Counted from the stretch's first letter, positions 30,501 to 36,500 are shown. The stretch: 64,000 nt of DNA from Myxococcota bacterium (GCA_036012755.1 DASCPX010000137.1:96001-160000); one strand, 5' to 3'. Numbers are program-made.

Positions 30501-33500
30501 CAGTTCAGCTACAACGTCTTCACGGTCAGCGAGGCCGACTTCGAGCGGATCCGGCAGATGCACTTGCGCTACTTCCGGGCTCTGAGGGCGGTCGTGGCCG
30601 AGTCCGAGCCTGGCGAGAAGGTCTGCGTGGCGAACGTTCAGCTCTTCACGCTCTCCAGCCACTCCTGAATGGCCCGCGCAGCCTCTGCCGGCTCTCGTTG
30701 GAGGACGAGGTGGGGGCTGGAGAGCTCGACGACCGTCGTGCTCGGCGCAGCCTTCACCAGGGTGTTCCTCGCGCCCCAGAGGAGCATGTCCCAGCTCGCG
30801 TGCAGGTAGAGCACCGGCACCTCGAGAGCCTGTAGTGCCTCCTTCATGTCGACCTCCAGGACCCGCTCGGCGCGTTGCACCAGCAGCGCTCCGGGGACCT
30901 CGTTGACCTCGCGGATGATCTCCTCCACGAGCTCCGTCTCAGCCGATGGACCCACGAGGAAGCTCCGCACGATCAGGCCGTTGACCCGGTTCCCCAGCAG
31001 GCGCGCCAGGGGCCGCGTCCAGGTCGGGAGAGGCCCCTCCGAGAAGGTCGCCGCGAGGACCAGGCCGACCACTCGGTCTGGCACCGCGGACGCGACGCCG
31101 ATGCCCACCGGACCGCTGAAGGACTCGGCGACGATGACCAGTTCGCCCTCCGGGAGCTGATCCAGGACGAAGGCGATCAGCCGCTCGTAGCTGAGGTCGT
31201 CCAGCGGGTAGGTGACACTCCGGGTCGGAGTCCCGTCGGGCAGCGCTGCGACGAAGTGGGCATAGAGCGCGCCGTTGCCGTGCAGGCCCGGCAGCAAGAG
31301 GTAGGTGGCGCTCACGTAGGGCTAGAGGATCGCGGATGCCATCAGGACCAGCCACGCTGCCATGGTCAGGCCGGTCTTCACGATGTTGCCCATCAAGGTC
31401 GCCGCGGTGGCCCAGAGCGCTGGCCGGACAGCGTCCTTGGTCGACTTCTTCGCGTCCACGCTGAGCTCACCGATCAGGGCCCCGAGGAAGGTACCCAGCA
31501 AGGCTCCGATGAGCGTGCCGAGGATGGGGATCGGGATCAGGAAGGTCAGGAAGAGCCCGCCCAGCACGCCACCGGCGATGGAGCCGATGGCTGCGCGCCG
31601 CGACCCCCCGCCTTTCTTTACGCCCAGGGCCGCGGCGCCGAGCTCGAGGCCCTCGCCGAGGAGGGCGAGCAGGACTCCGCCGCCGATCGCCCACCAGCCG
31701 AAGGTCACGTGGGTGGTGCTGCCGAAGATCAGCGTGTCGGTGAGCTCCAGGATCAGCGCCAGGCCGAGCATCGCCCAGCCGCCAGGTAAGGAGAAGGCCA
31801 CCGTGCCGACACAGACGAGCCCGACGAGGGCGAAGAGCACGAGGACAGCGACTTCCACCTTCAGACCATAGTCGCGGAGCTCAGGCTGTCGAGGAACATC
31901 ACGACGCGGCCCTCCTGCCGCCAGCTGAGGGCGGCGGCGAGGGTCTTCGCCGTGTAGGTGGGCTCCAGGGAGAGCCCATGCTCGCGACCGAGGTCCATGG
32001 CGCGGTTGCCGCTCTCGGTCGGCACGCCGTAGCCGCCGCCGAACTCGCTGTGCCAGACACGGAGGCGCTCTCCGTCGACGCGGACACCGAGGCGGCGACC
32101 GGCTGAGCGAGCGAGCGCGAGCACGATGCTCCGATTCGCGAAGGCTCGGTCCACGACTCGGACGGCGTGTAGCCGCGTGGACAGTCCGGCCATCTGCAAT
32201 CCGACCAGCAGTCCGGCGACGGTTCCGCCGCTTCCGAGGGCTGCGAAGAGATCCGTGGGCTCCGGGCACTCCCCACGCTTCACCTGCTGACCCAGCTCCA
32301 AGCCGCCCTCGACCCAGCCCAGCGAGCCCAGCGGCGTCGATCCCCCCGCCCAGACGAAGTAGGGCCAGCGGCCGTGACTGCGGTGGACCTTCTCTGCGGC
32401 GTCGATGGCCGCGAGGGGGAGGAGGATCTCCTTCGGCACCATCGTGATGCTGGCTGCCTCGAGCTGGAGCCTGCTCCAGTTCTTCTCTACGTGCGGTGTC
32501 GAGGGCTGTGGCAAGACCAGCGCGTGCGTGCGGACGCCGAAGCGCTTTCCGTGCAGGGAGCAGGCGAGCAGGTGGTGGCTGCCGGTCGCGCCCAGGGTCA
32601 GCATGTCACCGCCGCGGCGGCGCGCCTCTGGCAGCAGGTAGGCCAGCTTGCGGACCTTGTTGCCGCCGTAGAGCGTGTGGGAGCGGTCCTCGCGCTTGGC
32701 CCAGATGCCAAGGCCGGTCACTTCCTCTACGGGAGTGGGGAAGTCCCCGACATCATCACGCTCGAAGCTGCCCAGTGACACAGGGCGAGCCTACTCCTCC
32801 TTCGCCAGCTCGCGCTCGAGCACCTCGACCATCGCCTCGTGCTCGAAGCGGTTGTTGACGTACTGGATCGTGCCGTCGATCCCGATGATCCAGTCCTGCG
32901 GGAAGGCGGCGGTCGGGAAGGCGAACTCCTGCTGGTAGTTCATGATGACCCCCGCGTCGTCGACGAGCACGGGCATCGTCAAGCCGAGGGCGTCGCGGAA
33001 CTCCTCCAGCACGGACTCGTCCTCCATCCCGATGGCCCAGACCTGGACGCCGCGGTCGGCGTAGACCTGGTAGATGCTCTGGTCGATGTCCGAGACCTCG
33101 GACGGGCAGACCGGTCACCAGGTCGCGAAGTAGGCGAGCACGACTGGATGCCCGAGGTGCTCTGACAGCGTGTGGCTGTTGCCCTCGAGGTCGCGGAGCG
33201 TGAAGTCGGTGGCGGTGGCGCCGATGTAGCTCCCAGAGTCGACGCCCGAGATGAGCTCCCTCTCCTGCGTTGGGCCGTCCGCGTCGTTGGAGGCCACGCA
33301 GAGGGTGGCAGAGAGGTCGTCTCCGCCGCCGTAGGTCAGGCGGATCAGCGCGCTCTGGCCAGAATCCAGCAGGCTCCCGCTGACCTCGACGGTGACCTCG
33401 TCGCTGTCGACCGTGGCTCCGGACAGCTCGAGGACGCCGGCTCCGCGATTGGTGACCCGGACCTCGGTCGAGCCGCCCTCTGCGGGGAGCACGATCTCCT

Positions 33501-36500
33501 GGTCGCTCATGGAGAGTTCGCCGGCCTCTGCCCCCGTCCACTGGAAGCTCGAGAAGTAGTTCCAGTCGCCGACCCAGCCGACATCTCCAGAGGCGCCGAT
33601 GGCCAGGGCGAACTGCTCGCTGACCTCTCGAGCCAGCCAGGTGGGGTTCGTGGGGTCGGAGATGTCGAAGAGGGCGACGCCCGTGTGGTCGGCGGCCCAG
33701 AGGCGCCCATCGGCGGTGTCGGTCATGAGCACCGATCCCCCGGTCTCGACCAGGGCGACCTCGGTGGGCGCGCTGGGGTCGGAGCGCTCGAGCACGCGGA
33801 CGCCGTAGCCCCCGTTGCTCACGTAGAGGTAGTCCGCCGTGGCCTCGACATGGAGGGTCGCCCCGTCGACCGGGACGGGATCGTGGACGACGGGGTTGCC
33901 GGGATCGCTGACATCGATCGGGTAGACGCCGCCTGCGTTGTCGGCCGCGTAGGTCCAGCCCTCGATGATCTCGGAGAGGTCCCAGGTGGTCTCGGGCCCG
34001 GCGACGGTGGTCAACAGCTCCGGGTTCTCGGGGTCGGTGAAGTCGTAGGCTCGGACGCCCTCGCCCCGCACGGTCGTGTACAGGATCGGGTCGGACCAGG
34101 CGAGCCCCTCGAGTCCGGACTCCAGCACCGGGTTGTGCTGCTGCCAGGTCCCGGCGCTGTCACGGATGGCGACCGTGAGGCCAGTGTCCCGATGCGACAG
34201 GGCGAGGATGCCGTCGCCGAGGACCTCGACCCGGTGGTAGCGAGCGTGGTCGTCCTCTTCGGGGAACCACGTGACGAACTCTGGGGCGGAGACATCCGAG
34301 ATGTCGAAGATGCCCAGCCCGCCTTGACCGACCGCGTAGGCATCGTCCCCGTCCAGGTCCAGATCGACCCACTCGGCGAAGCGCGCTGGTCCCGGCTCGT
34401 CCTTGCCCTTCTTGTCGTACCCCATCCACACCAGGGGGTCGTCCGGGAGGTCCGCTGGGGCCTCGCAGCTGGCGGGGAGCGTCGTCCACTCGATCGGCTC
34501 GCCGGTGTCGCCGGTGTCATCTCCAGGGAGAGACGTGTCGTCCTCTTCTCGAGAGCCGGGCACGCAGGTGCCTTCGGCGGTCAGCAGCTCGTCTGGGGCG
34601 CAAGGGTGGCTGGAGCAGCTCAGGGACAACAGAAGCATGCCCGGAGGATGCCACCGGGGGCACTGGGTTTCGCAGCTCGTAATGCCCGAGACACTCCGAT
34701 CCGATTCCCTGTCCGGAGGCTACATGCCCGTGTTTCTCGTGCTCCTCGCCGCCTGCGGCTCAGACTCCGGTGATGTCGCCACTGCCACGATCGCCCCTGT
34801 CGCGGGTCACATCCGCCTCGCCCCGGTCTCCGAGCCCCTGGTGCTCGGCATCGAGTTCGGCGAGGTCGACCCGAGCGAGGTCCGCGTCGAGTGGTCCCCA
34901 GAGGGTGAGGACACAGAGGCTGTCGCCGAGGTCGTCACCGCCGAGAGCGAGGGAGTCGTCGCTGTCGTATCGGACTTCGTCGAAGACGTCGGTGCGCGCT
35001 GGAAGGACGACTCGGCGCCCGAGCCCGCCGCGATCGTGGTCGAGGAGGTCGCTGAGGCCGTGGTCGCACCGGAGACGGTCGTCGAAGCACCAAAGGTGGA
35101 CGTCCTCGCCCAGCTGCTGGGCACCGACCCCCTCGCGGAGATGTCCGTCGACCAGGTCATCCGGCGCTACTCCAGCCAGGCCCAGTACTGCCACGAGACC
35201 GCGAAGGAGCGCTACTCCGAGATCGAGGGCCGCGTCAGTGTTGCCTGGACGGTCGAGGCCGGCGTCGTGAAGGACGTCGAGATCCTCGACGACACCACCG
35301 GCGATCCCCAGATGGCCGGCTGCGTGGCGCGCAAGGTCAGGTACTGGCGCTTCCCAGCTGGGATGGACGCCGAGGTGGAGCATCCCTTCGTCTTCCAGCG
35401 GGCGATCTAGGGTCTCCTGAAGACCAGTCGTACGTCGAGCGCCCCGGCCTCGAAGCGCCCGACCTCGCAGCGAAAGCCCTCTTCGTCCGGCACCAGCCGC
35501 ACCACCGGACCGAGGCCGCTCGGCACCCAGTGGAAGCCGCCGCCTTCTCGCGGGAGCACCGCGTGGACATCGGCGATGCCCTCGCTGGTGAAGTGGTGCA
35601 CGACGAGGTCGCCGTCTTCGCCGACACCGTAGAGGCAGAGGTCGCTGTAGCCGTCGATGACCTCTGTGTACTCGATCCATGCCCCGTCGAGGATGGCCCT
35701 GACCCGGGCTTCGCCGCGGACGGGGGAGAGGTGCACCACTCCGGTGACGACCCACTCGCCGAGCATGAAGGACAGCGCTTCGAGCTTCTCGAGATGGGGC
35801 ATGCCGGCTTTGTCGATAATGTGCCCCCATGCCGCGCGCCCCAATGCTTCTGTTGCTCGCCGGAGCCGCCCTCGCTGCAGATCATCGTGGCTGGACCGAG
35901 GGCACGCCGGCGGCGGGTACGGGGGCCCTGCTGGCGCCGCGGGATCCGATCCCTGTCGAGCTGCCCGCCTGGGTCGTCGAGCGGGTCGCGGGGCCCACCT
36001 TCGTCTACTACTTCTCTCCAGCCTGCCCCCACTGCCAGGCCACTATCGGCGAGGTCGTCGAGCTCTCGGCGAAGACCCCGGGCGTGAGCTTCATCGGCAT
36101 CTCGACCGGGCGCGCGACCGAGGAAGAGGTCAGCCGGTTCAAGGCAGACAACGGCGTCGAGTTCGACATCCTGATCGACCAGCCCCAGGGCTTCGCCTAC
36201 TCCCTGGGCGCTCGCTCGACGCCGACGGTCCTGGTCCTCGAGCCCGCAGGGTCCGGCGTGGTCGCCACGGACTACTACGGACCCTGGGTCCAGGGGAACT
36301 CGCTCTTGTTCCAGATGCGGAGAACCCCGGAGATGGCCTTCGCGATGTTCGAGGAGGACGTGTACCAGGGGGACTCCGTCTGCGGCGCCTGCCACACGGA
36401 GGAGGCTCGCAGCCTCTCGCTCACCCACCACGCCATCGCCTACCAGACCATCTACATGCACGACGACCAGGACGACCCGGAGTGCGTCGCCTGCCACGTC

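What a model noticed while it worked through the whole genome (the two positions that open the first line are those of the whole stretch)
32791..34638. LVIVD beta-propeller fused to a selenocysteine thioredoxin-fold domain (W-U-x-x-C): an unlisted selenoprotein family
Genes g04112 and g04111 are one 615-codon frame interrupted only by an in-frame TGA that sits exactly at the first position of the redox motif of a C-terminal ResA/TlpA-like thioredoxin fold (FATW-U-PVC); the N-terminal 450 residues are an LVIVD-repeat beta-propeller behind a lipoprotein-type signal. I read it as an exported selenoprotein in which a propeller that grips a substrate is wired to a Sec-based thiol-disulfide (or peroxide/selenide) oxidoreductase; a second copy lies at C228:43342-45045 (SSL-U-PSC). 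This fusion is not among the selenoprotein families of NCBIfam or the 2026 review table that I searched, so it would be a new, lineage-expanded selenoprotein family.
Evidence so far: Own scan of all in-frame TGA with 35 stop-free codons either side, BLASTP against the genome's proteins: TGA at C137:129117(-) and C228:44707(+) align to the first Cys of CxxC in 5 and 3 Cys-paralogues (g00044, g03716, g01218, g05306, g04170; E 1e-5 to 2e-10). Six-frame search with the read-through protein in 61 UBA796 genomes: 33 have it (10/10 of the own family); 57 matches listed, of which 52 carry exactly one TGA, 1 one TGA and one TAG, 4 none (3 of these cover only the propeller part); up to 10 copies in one genome; identity 29-52%, so the TGA is kept over deep divergence. 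Sec machinery is complete: selA g04448, selB g04075, selD g02439, tRNA-Sec C61:26415-26515. NCBIfam scan of both re [...]
(Added by a program. Inside this text positions count along the whole contig: contig position 96,001 is position 1 of the stretch shown here. "Call 12" and the like, gene names such as g00115 and contig names such as C1 are that model's own, and its searches are not shown. The text may have been shortened before it was handed on; [...] marks where a part breaks off. The agent that wrote the report below was given it as the finding of a first reader that could run no searches.)

Follow-up and report, generated by a model that had tools for sequence, protein, structure and literature searches.

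The report
Selenocysteine redoxin fused to propeller lipoprotein
The "stop" codon in the middle of this gene almost certainly encodes selenocysteine in the active site of a thioredoxin-like enzyme domain that is fused to a seven-bladed propeller, in a much-copied family of exported bacterial proteins that gene callers routinely cut in two.

Summary
Observation confirmed. Window 32791-34638 (-) is one 615-codon frame with a single TGA (33115-33117) at the first position of a ResA/TlpA-like redox motif (FATW-U-PVC). Reading it as selenocysteine is strongly supported. All 47 complete homologues I extracted have TGA in that column. A hairpin 11 nt downstream meets every criterion of the published bacterial SECIS model. 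Its codons are frozen at synonymous sites in one subfamily, and its stem covaries in the other. A natural Cys form (TGC) lacks the hairpin. The genome has selA, selB, selD and tRNA-Sec. The AlphaFold model (pLDDT 90.9) shows a lipoprotein signal, a seven-bladed LVIVD propeller, an Ig-like domain and a ResA-like domain. The family has up to 12 copies per genome in this Myxococcota class. Close database relatives are nearly all truncated at the TGA. The Sec domain falls under a listed kind ("Prx-like thiol:disulfide oxidoreductase", PF00578, UxxC). Only the fusion and its expansion are new, so this is a new variant of a known kind. Function (a substrate-targeted extracytoplasmic selenol/thiol-disulfide reductase) is inferred, not shown. 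This scan noted the same family earlier on other genomes (e1-3386726, e1-975261, e1-1398381).

The parts
32791..34638 (-). Whole selenoprotein gene, 615 codons plus TAG stop (32791-32793)
   Evidence: single frame with one TGA. Homologues of 29-52% identity span it end to end.
33115..33117 (-). In-frame TGA = selenocysteine codon 508 (first position of U-P-V-C)
   Evidence: sequence. TGA in the same column in 47 of 47 complete homologous loci. Cys (TGC) at this position in a natural Cys form and in 3 own-genome redoxins.
33106..33108 (-). Cys511 codon (TGC), resolving cysteine of the UxxC motif
   Evidence: Invariant column C511 in alignment A3.
33088..33103 (-). SECIS upper hairpin GUCCGA-GGUC-UCGGAC (6 bp, 4-nt loop), 11 nt after the TGA
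   Evidence: -7.6 kcal/mol alone, -9.1 for 21 nt. Codons here are frozen at synonymous sites in 27 homologues. The equivalent hairpin in subfamily B covaries.
33081..33112 (-). Extended SECIS with a 4-bp lower stem (columns 6-9 with 34-37 after the TGA)
   Evidence: -13.5 kcal/mol. The lower stem is predicted for this copy only; conservation was not tested.
34615..34638 (-). Short lipoprotein-type signal MLLLSLS + Cys8 (start codon uncertain)
   Evidence: Cys8 column conserved in >=90% of 37 sequences.
33529..34455 (-). Seven-bladed LVIVD beta-propeller (about residues 62-370)
   Evidence: Pfam LVIVD 40.6 bits. AlphaFold2 strands 69-367, pLDDT mostly >90. Foldseek finds seven-bladed propellers, TMt up to 0.78.
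33247..33516 (-). Ig-like beta-sandwich linker domain (about residues 375-464, ...SNDADGP motif)
   Evidence: AlphaFold2 strands 375-464. Profile hit to PDB 2qsv over 369-451, E 5e-11.
32794..33225 (-). ResA/TlpA-like thioredoxin-fold domain (residues 472-615) with U508-P-V-C511 and cis-Pro candidate P580
   Evidence: Pfam AhpC-TSA 1.7e-20. PDB profile hits to ResA, E 2.9e-29. Foldseek ResA TMt 0.80-0.85. P580 invariant.

Best explanation
This is one gene for a 615-residue exported selenoprotein. SHOWN by sequence and comparison: the single in-frame UGA sits at the first position of a ResA/TlpA-type redox motif (U-P-V-C). It is followed, after 11 nt, by a conserved hairpin that fits the bacterial SECIS model. 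The organism has selA, selB, selD and tRNA-Sec. INFERRED decoding: SelB carrying Sec-tRNA(Sec) binds the hairpin while the ribosome holds UGA in the A site and inserts selenocysteine. Without selenium, a 507-residue truncated propeller protein would result. INFERRED anatomy, from a high-confidence model and from homologues: a lipid-anchored N-terminus, an acidic tether, a seven-bladed LVIVD propeller, an Ig-like domain and a C-terminal ResA-like thioredoxin fold. INFERRED function (my odds about 0.45-0.5): an extracytoplasmic selenol/thiol-disulfide reductase or isomerase. The selenolate of U508 attacks a disulfide (or sulfenate) in a substrate held by the propeller, Cys511 resolves the selenenylsulfide, and the U-C pair is re-reduced through a CcdA/DsbD-type membrane electron conduit. 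The many diverged paralogues per genome keep the redox motif but vary the propeller, which would give different substrate specificities. The confidence given below is for the core claim: a genuine, SECIS-decoded selenoprotein with this architecture.
For: TGA is in the same column, as U-P-x-C, in 47 of 47 complete loci (27 plus 20 fetched); 3 further loci were cut by contig ends. In the class search, 123 of 150 listed matches carry a TGA and no stop-free match spans both domains. In the phylum search with a Cys form as query, 33 of 34 listed matches carry TGA. TGA is still a stop: 13 of 27 family genes end in TGA. SECIS, subfamily A: the hairpin GUCCGA-GGUC-UCGGAC lies at columns 15-30 after the TGA. 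At codons +4 to +9 the codon entropy is 0-0.5 bit (TCC 26/27, GAG 27/27, GTC 27/27, TCG 26/26). At other conserved 4- to 6-fold columns of the same 27 genes it is about 1.1-2.0 bit (for example Ser at -16: TCC 13, TCG 7, AGC 4, TCA 2, TCT 1). SECIS, subfamily B (20 sequences): 90% of cells are paired, 5 of 7 pairs have changes on both sides, 0 of 500 shuffles reach this, and slid controls pair at most 53%. All four criteria of the published bSECIS model (passages of PMC13188914) are met: loop 4 nt starting GG, 6-bp stem, 17-nt spacing, MFE -7.6 to -13.5 kcal/mol. Natural control: the Cys form P0157 has TGC at the site, no hairpin, and SAEVAD instead of PSEVSD. Machinery. The downstream part is at least as conserved as the upstream part (51-60% identity in C-terminal fragments). 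The only downstream table-11 ORF (78 aa from Met at 33027) would lack the active site. Fold: pLDDT 90.9, pTM 0.88. ResA is the best solved relative by sequence (2.9e-29) and by fold (TMt 0.80-0.85); peroxiredoxins are weaker (about 1e-13). A DsbD_TM protein is present (66 bits).
Against: There are no selenium, protein or RNA data. The 81-nt fold around the site is not more stable than shuffles (z -0.53), so the SECIS case rests on comparison, not on energy. Rfam has no matching family. This copy's signal peptide is unusually short and lacks a basic residue, and its start codon is unsure. No conserved gene neighbour points to a substrate or a reductant. I could not inspect model coordinates, so the propeller-active-site geometry is unknown. 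The covariation counts use related sequences, which overstates significance. The subfamily A hairpin is nearly invariant, so most of its support comes from synonymous-site freezing; only a few base changes keep pairing (L014, L016, L018, L020).
Confidence: 0.85

Rival explanations
1. Same selenoprotein, but the Sec domain works as a peroxidase or sulfenate/selenenate reductase (Prx/GPx-like). U508 is oxidised by a peroxide and resolved by Cys511, protecting the envelope or removing peroxide made at the propeller.
For: The best Pfam family is AhpC-TSA. One metagenome source names a Cys homologue 'peroxiredoxin'. Solved peroxiredoxins and BCPs are hit at 1e-13 to 1e-11. There is a weak SBP56-type (propeller) Pfam hit, E 0.031, below cut-off.
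Against: ResA/TlpA/DsbE-type thiol-disulfide oxidoreductases score far better than peroxiredoxins (2.9e-29 vs 8.9e-14; NCBIfam ResA 65 bits vs PrxQ 26 bits). The motif is W-U-x-x-C, not the TxxC/TxxU listed for peroxiredoxin in the review table. The SBP56 hit is far under its cut-off (13.5 vs 34 bits).
Confidence: 0.2
2. Same selenoprotein, but the U-x-x-C pair binds or reduces a metal or metalloid centre. Examples are copper-site maturation, as TlpA does for Sco/CoxB (recalled), or Hg/Se/As handling. The propeller would act as a docking platform.
For: Weak SCO1/SenC (E 0.08) and TlpA (NF047696, 23 bits vs 230) similarities. In this genome and its same-genus relative, a thioredoxin-multihaem cytochrome fusion lies about 1.2 kb upstream on the opposite strand.
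Against: All these scores are far below cut-offs. The cytochrome neighbour is seen in 2 of 27 loci only. No metal-handling gene recurs beside the family.
Confidence: 0.1
3. The TGA is an ordinary stop. The locus is a 507-residue propeller protein followed by a dead or separately translated redoxin fragment (a split gene or pseudogene).
For: Public gene calls end there: most of the close relatives are 470-540 aa and cover at most 82% of the query. One own-genome copy (C171) really is frame-broken next to its TGA.
Against: Downstream coding sequence is conserved, the TGA column is conserved in 47 of 47 loci, and the hairpin is conserved. The Cys forms are continuous. Any downstream start would lose the active site. 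Sec machinery is complete.
Confidence: 0.03
4. The TGA is read through by something other than Sec-tRNA: a code change to Trp/Gly, or near-cognate Cys/Trp suppression.
For: None specific. Near-cognate read-through of UGA exists in bacteria (recalled).
Against: 13 of 27 family genes use TGA as their true stop. A SECIS-type hairpin and full Sec machinery are present. The position is the redox-active Cys position, the classic Sec/Cys pair.
Confidence: 0.02

Closest known systems
[quoted passage not shown]
   Same: Same Pfam domain over its cut-off. Sec is at the first position of UxxC. There are Sec/Cys homologue pairs and a bSECIS immediately downstream.
   Different: The listed families are defined by the redox domain alone. 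Here that domain is the C-terminal quarter of a 615-residue lipoprotein with a propeller and an Ig-like domain. The word 'propeller' does not occur in the review's main text. I could not compare directly with the exemplar accessions, because no tool fetches them.
ResA / TlpA / CcmG(DsbE) extracytoplasmic thiol-disulfide oxidoreductases
   Same: Best solved relatives by sequence profile (ResA 4nmu 2.9e-29) and by fold (TMt 0.80-0.85, 20-25% identity). Membrane-tethered, outside the cytoplasm. Active site at the start of helix 1. Subfamily B keeps an E-F-P after the motif, as in ResA's C-E-P-C-K-K-E-F-P (ResA letters recalled, not checked).
   Different: Sec instead of Cys. Fused propeller. Far below the NCBIfam cut-offs (ResA 65 vs 170; TlpA 23 vs 230; DsbE 22 vs 123), so it is not an orthologue. 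No cytochrome-maturation gene context.
UGC-containing TlpA-family / 'ResA-like WAxxUGC motif-containing protein' (NF041054)
   Same: A TlpA-like selenoprotein of bacteria.
   Different: Different motif (WAxxUGC vs W-U-P-x-C). 19 bits against a cut-off of 300.
LVIVD-repeat surface proteins (PF08309) and NCBIfam choice-of-anchor B / I propeller proteins
   Same: Same repeat family over the Pfam cut-off. The profile search is dominated by very large LVIVD proteins.
   Different: Those carry no redox domain. Choice-of-anchor scores are far below cut-offs (17 vs 300; 14 vs 100).
FG-GAP/CRTAC1-ASPIC propeller-thioredoxin selenoprotein candidates
   Same: The same theme: an exported propeller joined to a Sec-containing thioredoxin fold with a hairpin after the UGA.
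   Different: Another propeller family and much larger proteins. This is an unchecked lead: my search for selenoprotein + FG-GAP + ASPIC found no relevant paper.

Membership tests
Bacterial selenoprotein gene (SelB/SECIS-decoded UGA) | In-frame UGA conserved among homologues and aligned to Cys in Cys-containing homologues | tested here: met
   47 of 47 complete loci have TGA in that column. TGC in the Cys form P0157. Cys in 3 of the 4 own-genome redoxins aligned.
Bacterial selenoprotein gene (SelB/SECIS-decoded UGA) | bSECIS model of PMC13188914 Fig. 2 legend: 3-9 nt apical loop, 4-16 bp stem, G in the first two loop positions, 16-37 nt between UGA and loop, MFE <= -7.5 kcal/mol | tested here: met
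   Loop GGUC (4 nt), 6 bp, 17 nt spacing, -7.6 (16 nt) / -9.1 (21 nt) / -13.5 kcal/mol (with lower stem). Conservation and covariation.
Bacterial selenoprotein gene (SelB/SECIS-decoded UGA) | selA, selB, selD and tRNA-Sec in the same genome | tested here: met
   497, 291 and 340 bits, all over cut-off. tRNA-SeC(tca) on C61.
Bacterial selenoprotein gene (SelB/SECIS-decoded UGA) | Selenium actually incorporated (75Se label or Sec peptide) | not testable with these tools
   No proteomic or labelling data. No RNA run listed.
Prx-like thiol:disulfide oxidoreductase selenoproteins (PF00578, UxxC) | PF00578 domain over the gathering score | tested here: met
   73.7 bits vs 26, residues 472-594.
Prx-like thiol:disulfide oxidoreductase selenoproteins (PF00578, UxxC) | UxxC motif with Sec first | tested here: met
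   U508-P-V-C511.
Prx-like thiol:disulfide oxidoreductase selenoproteins (PF00578, UxxC) | Stand-alone redox-domain architecture (as I recall for the exemplars; not stated in the passages seen) | tested here: not met
   The redox domain is residues 472-615 of a 615-residue fusion.
ResA (NF002854) / TlpA (NF047696) / DsbE (TIGR00385) | Score over NCBIfam's curated cut-off | tested here: not met
   65.2 vs 170; 22.8 vs 230; 22.2 vs 123.
ResA (NF002854) / TlpA (NF047696) / DsbE (TIGR00385) | Thioredoxin fold with the ResA-type insertion and the active site at the start of helix 1 | tested here: met
   Foldseek ResA chains, TMt 0.80-0.85, rmsd 2.4-3.4 over ~140 columns. Helix 511-529 starts at the motif.
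ResA-like WAxxUGC selenoprotein (NF041054) | Score over cut-off and WAxxUGC motif | tested here: not met
   19 bits vs 300. The motif here is FATW-U-PVC.
LVIVD repeat beta-propeller (PF08309) | Whole-protein score over the gathering score; propeller fold | tested here: met
   40.6 bits vs 20.2, although no single repeat passes alone. Seven four-stranded blades in the model. PF08309 is precomputed on nearly all close homologues.
Bacterial lipoprotein | Signal peptide with lipobox and invariant Cys | tested here: inconclusive
   This copy: MLLLSLS-C, short, no basic residue, S-L-S-C is not a canonical lipobox. Homologues: LLLAAC, AVFAAC, LLLLAC and others. Cys8 column conserved in >=90% of sequences. 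No signal-peptide predictor is available here.

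The most novel reading that the evidence does not exclude
These propeller-redoxin lipoproteins are a distinct, undescribed class of substrate-targeted extracytoplasmic selenoenzymes. A variable seven-bladed receptor domain delivers specific envelope or prey-derived substrates to a constant Sec-Cys redox centre. Their expansion to about a dozen paralogues per genome would make one architecture the bulk of the selenoproteome of marine Myxococcota. The SECIS hairpin doubles as the code for the first turn of the active-site helix (PSEVSD), a constraint that is lifted whenever Sec is replaced by Cys.
Probability: 0.35. Interest if true: 0.65.

Novelty: new variant of a known kind. 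Interest (0 to 1): 0.45.

Why it matters
First, annotation. Nearly every close relative in the public protein collections is a truncated "hypothetical" or "redoxin domain" protein cut at the TGA. No NCBIfam model names the family. Selenoproteome counts for Myxococcota are therefore too low by up to a dozen genes per genome. Second, biology. A selenocysteine redox centre tethered to a ligand-binding propeller on the cell envelope would be a targeted redox enzyme whose substrates are unknown. The large set of paralogues with one constant active site is a natural experiment in specificity. Third, method. The family gives a clean set of Sec and Cys forms in which an RNA signal constrains protein sequence. 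That is useful for training SECIS and selenoprotein predictors.

Tried and rejected
Rfam, permissive search of 32950-33250: no match.

Energy alone: the 81-nt fold has z -0.53 against shuffles, so I did not use stability as evidence.

Gene context: the PLP enzyme gene (PALP) 9 nt downstream and the other neighbours are not conserved. PALP is in 1 of 27 loci. The best recurring neighbour, a divergent lipoprotein, is in 4 of 27. p145 and the Trx-cytochrome gene are in 2 of 27. No operon partner can be named.

Mixed-subfamily pair count with the subfamily A structure on all 47 sequences: 71.6% paired, and the -1 slide was nearly as good. The reason is that subfamily B uses a register shifted by one, so I counted B separately.

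DNA of Cys forms: the scan with P0150 found nothing. P0157 succeeded.

Wider taxonomic survey: alignment A3 was unsuitable for pattern scanning. The single-protein scan of genome contigs gave only one weak redoxin hit in a Fibrobacterales record. Distribution outside Myxococcota therefore stays open here.

Maximum-likelihood tree: the tree programs could not be loaded. I used a neighbour-joining tree without support values, so placing the Cys forms at three or more positions among the Sec forms is tentative.

Expression: no RNA holder listed.

Literature: 0 papers hold LVIVD + selenocysteine. 4 papers hold selenoprotein + Myxococcota, none relevant by title or abstract. No 'propeller' in the 2026 review's main text. 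No LVIVD/propeller/PF08309 in the supplements of PMC12013277 or in the one stored supplement of PMC13326102, which is cut and is a genome list. The Kim et al. 2016 lead from earlier notes was not found.

I recalled that the E. coli fdhF SECIS loop is also GGUC but could not verify it, so I make no claim on it.

Foldseek gave only generic propellers for the N-terminal part, with no functional lead.

Full report
THE OBSERVATION. Under table 11 the minus strand of window 32791-34638 holds a 507-codon ORF (33115-34638) that ends in TGA. With TGA read through it is one 615-codon frame with a single TGA and a TAG stop. The TGA is codon 508 (nt 33117-33115). The context is AYFATW-U-PVC-PSEVSD. Pfam finds AhpC-TSA over residues 472-594 (73.7 bits against a cut-off of 26), Redoxin, and LVIVD (40.6 bits against 20.2, though no single repeat passes alone). 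No NCBIfam model reaches its cut-off. The best is ResA at 65 bits against 170, and the Sec-specific WAxxUGC_long model scores 19 against 300.

IS THE TGA A SELENOCYSTEINE CODON? Five independent lines agree.

(1) Conservation. A six-frame search of 101 genomes of the same class listed 150 matches. Of these, 123 carry a TGA (3 also a TAG), 1 carries a TAA and 26 have no stop. None of the 26 spans both halves: 6 are propeller-only pieces, mostly at contig ends, and 20 are redoxin-only matches. I extracted the genes from 30 loci of that call and from 20 more divergent places fetched. Three loci were cut by contig ends. All 47 complete genes have U-P-x-C in the same column. TGA has not been reassigned, since 13 of the 27 closer genes end in TGA.

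(2) A SECIS element. In the 27 closer genes (subfamily A, FATW-U-PVC-PSEVSD) the sequence GUCCGA-GGUC-UCGGAC lies at columns 15-30 after the TGA and is almost invariant. These proteins are only 31-51% identical. I therefore compared codon use at conserved residues. Codons +4 to +9 (P-S-E-V-S-D) have 0-0.5 bit of codon entropy (TCC 26/27, GAG 27/27, GTC 27/27, TCG 26/26). Other conserved four- to six-fold degenerate columns of the same genes have about 1.1-2.0 bit; for example Ser at -16 is TCC 13, TCG 7, AGC 4, TCA 2, TCT 1. Synonymous sites are thus frozen exactly where the hairpin lies. In the 20 divergent genes (subfamily B, FAT[FW]-U-PVC-xLE[FL]PD) a hairpin sits at the same place in a register shifted by one base, and it varies. 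There, 90% of cells are paired, 5 of 7 pairs show changes on both sides, 0 of 500 column shuffles reach this, and slid controls pair at most 53%. These sequences are related, so the shuffle figure is not a probability. The own-genome C228 copy has a B-register hairpin with three different stem pairs. The window's hairpin meets all four criteria of the consensus bacterial SECIS model quoted in the 2026 review (passages of PMC13188914, section 5 and the Fig. 2 legend): a 4-nt loop beginning GG, a 6-bp stem, 17 nt between UGA and loop, and -7.6 kcal/mol for the bare hairpin (-9.1 for 21 nt, -13.5 with a lower stem). Against this, the 81-nt fold is no more stable than shuffles (z -0.53) and Rfam has no matching family.

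(3) Sec/Cys pairs. A profile search of 1.84 billion representatives found six full-length, single-stretch proteins among the truncated family members. Five have W-C-x-x-C and one has lost the motif. All six are ordinary metagenome gene calls. I recovered the DNA for one of them, P0157. It has TGC at the Sec position, the following residues are SAEVAD instead of PSEVSD, and no hairpin folds there. Three stand-alone redoxins of the own genome also place Cys opposite the TGA. With that Cys form as query in 301 genomes of the phylum, 33 of 34 listed matches still carried TGA, and the one without a stop covered only the propeller. Sec is therefore the usual state. A neighbour-joining tree without support values puts the Cys forms at three or more places among the Sec forms. 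This hints at repeated Sec-to-Cys replacement but does not prove it.

(4) Machinery. selA (497 bits), selB (291 bits, on the same contig about 8 kb before the window), selD (340 bits, itself with one TGA) and one tRNA-Sec on C61 are present.

(5) The alternative makes no protein sense. The only downstream ORF starts at Met 33027 and would lack the active site. Yet C-terminal fragments at contig ends are 51-60% identical to the query, more than the propeller part.

WHAT THE PROTEIN IS. AlphaFold2 with a 37-sequence alignment gave mean pLDDT 90.9 and pTM 0.88. The model has:
- a disordered acidic stretch after the N-terminus;
- seven four-stranded blades (about residues 62-370);
- a seven-stranded Ig-like sandwich (375-464);
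- a thioredoxin fold (472-615) whose first long helix (511-529) starts at the motif.

Foldseek matches the propeller only to generic seven- and eight-bladed propellers. It matches the last domain to ResA (TMt 0.80-0.85, 20-25% identity). A sequence profile against the PDB puts ResA first (2.9e-29), then other TlpA/DsbE-type proteins. Peroxiredoxins and BCPs come much lower (about 1e-13 to 1e-11).

The N-terminus of this copy, MLLLSLSC, is very short and has no basic residue. No other ATG/GTG/TTG lies upstream in frame. Homologues have clear lipoprotein signals (for example ...LPLLLLAAC...LAVFAAC), and the Cys8 column is conserved in at least 90% of 37 sequences. I therefore accept an exported, lipid-anchored protein for the family and leave this copy's start codon open.

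HOW IT MOST LIKELY WORKS. Decoding by SelB at the hairpin is inferred from the family of mechanisms, not shown. For function, the best-supported reading is an extracytoplasmic selenol/thiol-disulfide reductase or isomerase of the ResA/TlpA kind. U508 attacks, C511 resolves, and a CcdA/DsbD-type conduit re-reduces the pair; one DsbD_TM protein is present. The propeller and Ig-like domain would hold the substrate. The paralogues keep the redox motif while the propellers diverge to 23-28% identity, which fits varied specificity. I put this at about 0.45-0.5. A peroxidase-type role gets about 0.2 and metal-centre handling about 0.1. Gene context does not help: the PLP-enzyme gene 9 nt downstream is found in 1 of 27 loci and no neighbour recurs beyond close relatives. 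No RNA holder was listed.

COMPARISON WITH WHAT IS KNOWN. [quoted passage not shown] By domain and motif, the C-terminal quarter of this protein belongs to the first or second of these. It is not an orthologue of ResA, TlpA or DsbE, nor of the WAxxUGC family, because the NCBIfam cut-offs were tested and not met.

What I could not find in print is the fusion:
- 0 papers hold LVIVD and selenocysteine.
- 'Propeller' is absent from the review's main text.
- The supplements of the deep-Sep paper hold none of LVIVD, propeller or PF08309. The same is true of the one stored, truncated supplement of the BSepDB paper, which is a genome list.
- The review's own supplements were not readable, so members may be filed there under a generic name.

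In public protein sets, most of the close relatives listed are 470-540 residues, cover at most 82% of the query, and are called hypothetical or 'redoxin domain-containing'. Earlier notes of this scan describe the same family on other genomes (e1-3386726, e1-975261, e1-1398381) and a parallel theme with FG-GAP/CRTAC1 propellers (for example e1-5007244). They are not independent evidence, and the paper the last one cites was not found.

VERDICT. This is a real and well-spotted selenoprotein gene. It is a new architectural variant, strongly expanded in this lineage, of a selenoprotein kind known for about twenty years (the date is recalled). Its enzymatic role is inferred. It is of moderate interest to specialists, mainly for annotation, for the size of the paralogue family, and as a clean case of a SECIS constraining an active-site helix.

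Noticed in passing
own genome G000:C171:~15700-16930 (L070), outside the window: There is a third family copy (…ATFDDG-TGA…). The frame shifts by one base between the TGA and the Cys codon of the motif (TGA CCG GC TGC…), and the rest of the redoxin domain continues in another frame. Contigs of runs X1 and X3 (two studies, both possibly sources of this DNA) cover the site with no indel, so it looks like a real pseudogene rather than a one-off assembly slip.
   Followed up: partly
window 35829-37181 (+): A gene fuses an N-terminal thioredoxin/redoxin domain (…SPACPHC…) to a multihaem cytochrome with several CxxCH motifs (Pfam Cytochrome_C554, C7, MtrC-like). It is also present upstream of the family gene in the same-genus genome (L003) but not in other loci.
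   Followed up: partly
window 31864-32781 (-): A PLP-dependent enzyme gene (Pfam PALP, 92.6 bits) starts 9 nt after the selenoprotein's stop on the same strand and is followed by a DUF456 membrane protein. This adjacency was found in 1 of 27 loci only.
   Followed up: yes
own genome G000:C70:290568-291446 (L053): The selD match (340 bits) itself contains one in-frame TGA, so the selenophosphate synthetase is probably a selenoprotein too.
   Followed up: no
own genome G000:C137:87138-88187 (L052), about 8 kb before the window start: selB lies on the same contig as the finding.
   Followed up: no
G094:C59:54720-58372 and 88240-89784; G046 (12 places): Family genes occur in tandem in the same-genus genome (two adjacent copies plus a third 30 kb away). 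G046 has 12 matches, all with one TGA.
   Followed up: partly
P0212 (metagenome protein, 651 aa): A full-length homologue has lost the redox motif altogether (…FFSPNDPRAPSH… in place of FATW-U-PxC). It is a propeller-redoxin protein without a redox centre.
   Followed up: no
window 34724-35407 (+): A divergently transcribed lipoprotein gene (MPVFLVLLAAC…) has no Pfam hit. It recurs beside the family gene in 4 of 27 loci (L001, L004, L006, L010).
   Followed up: partly
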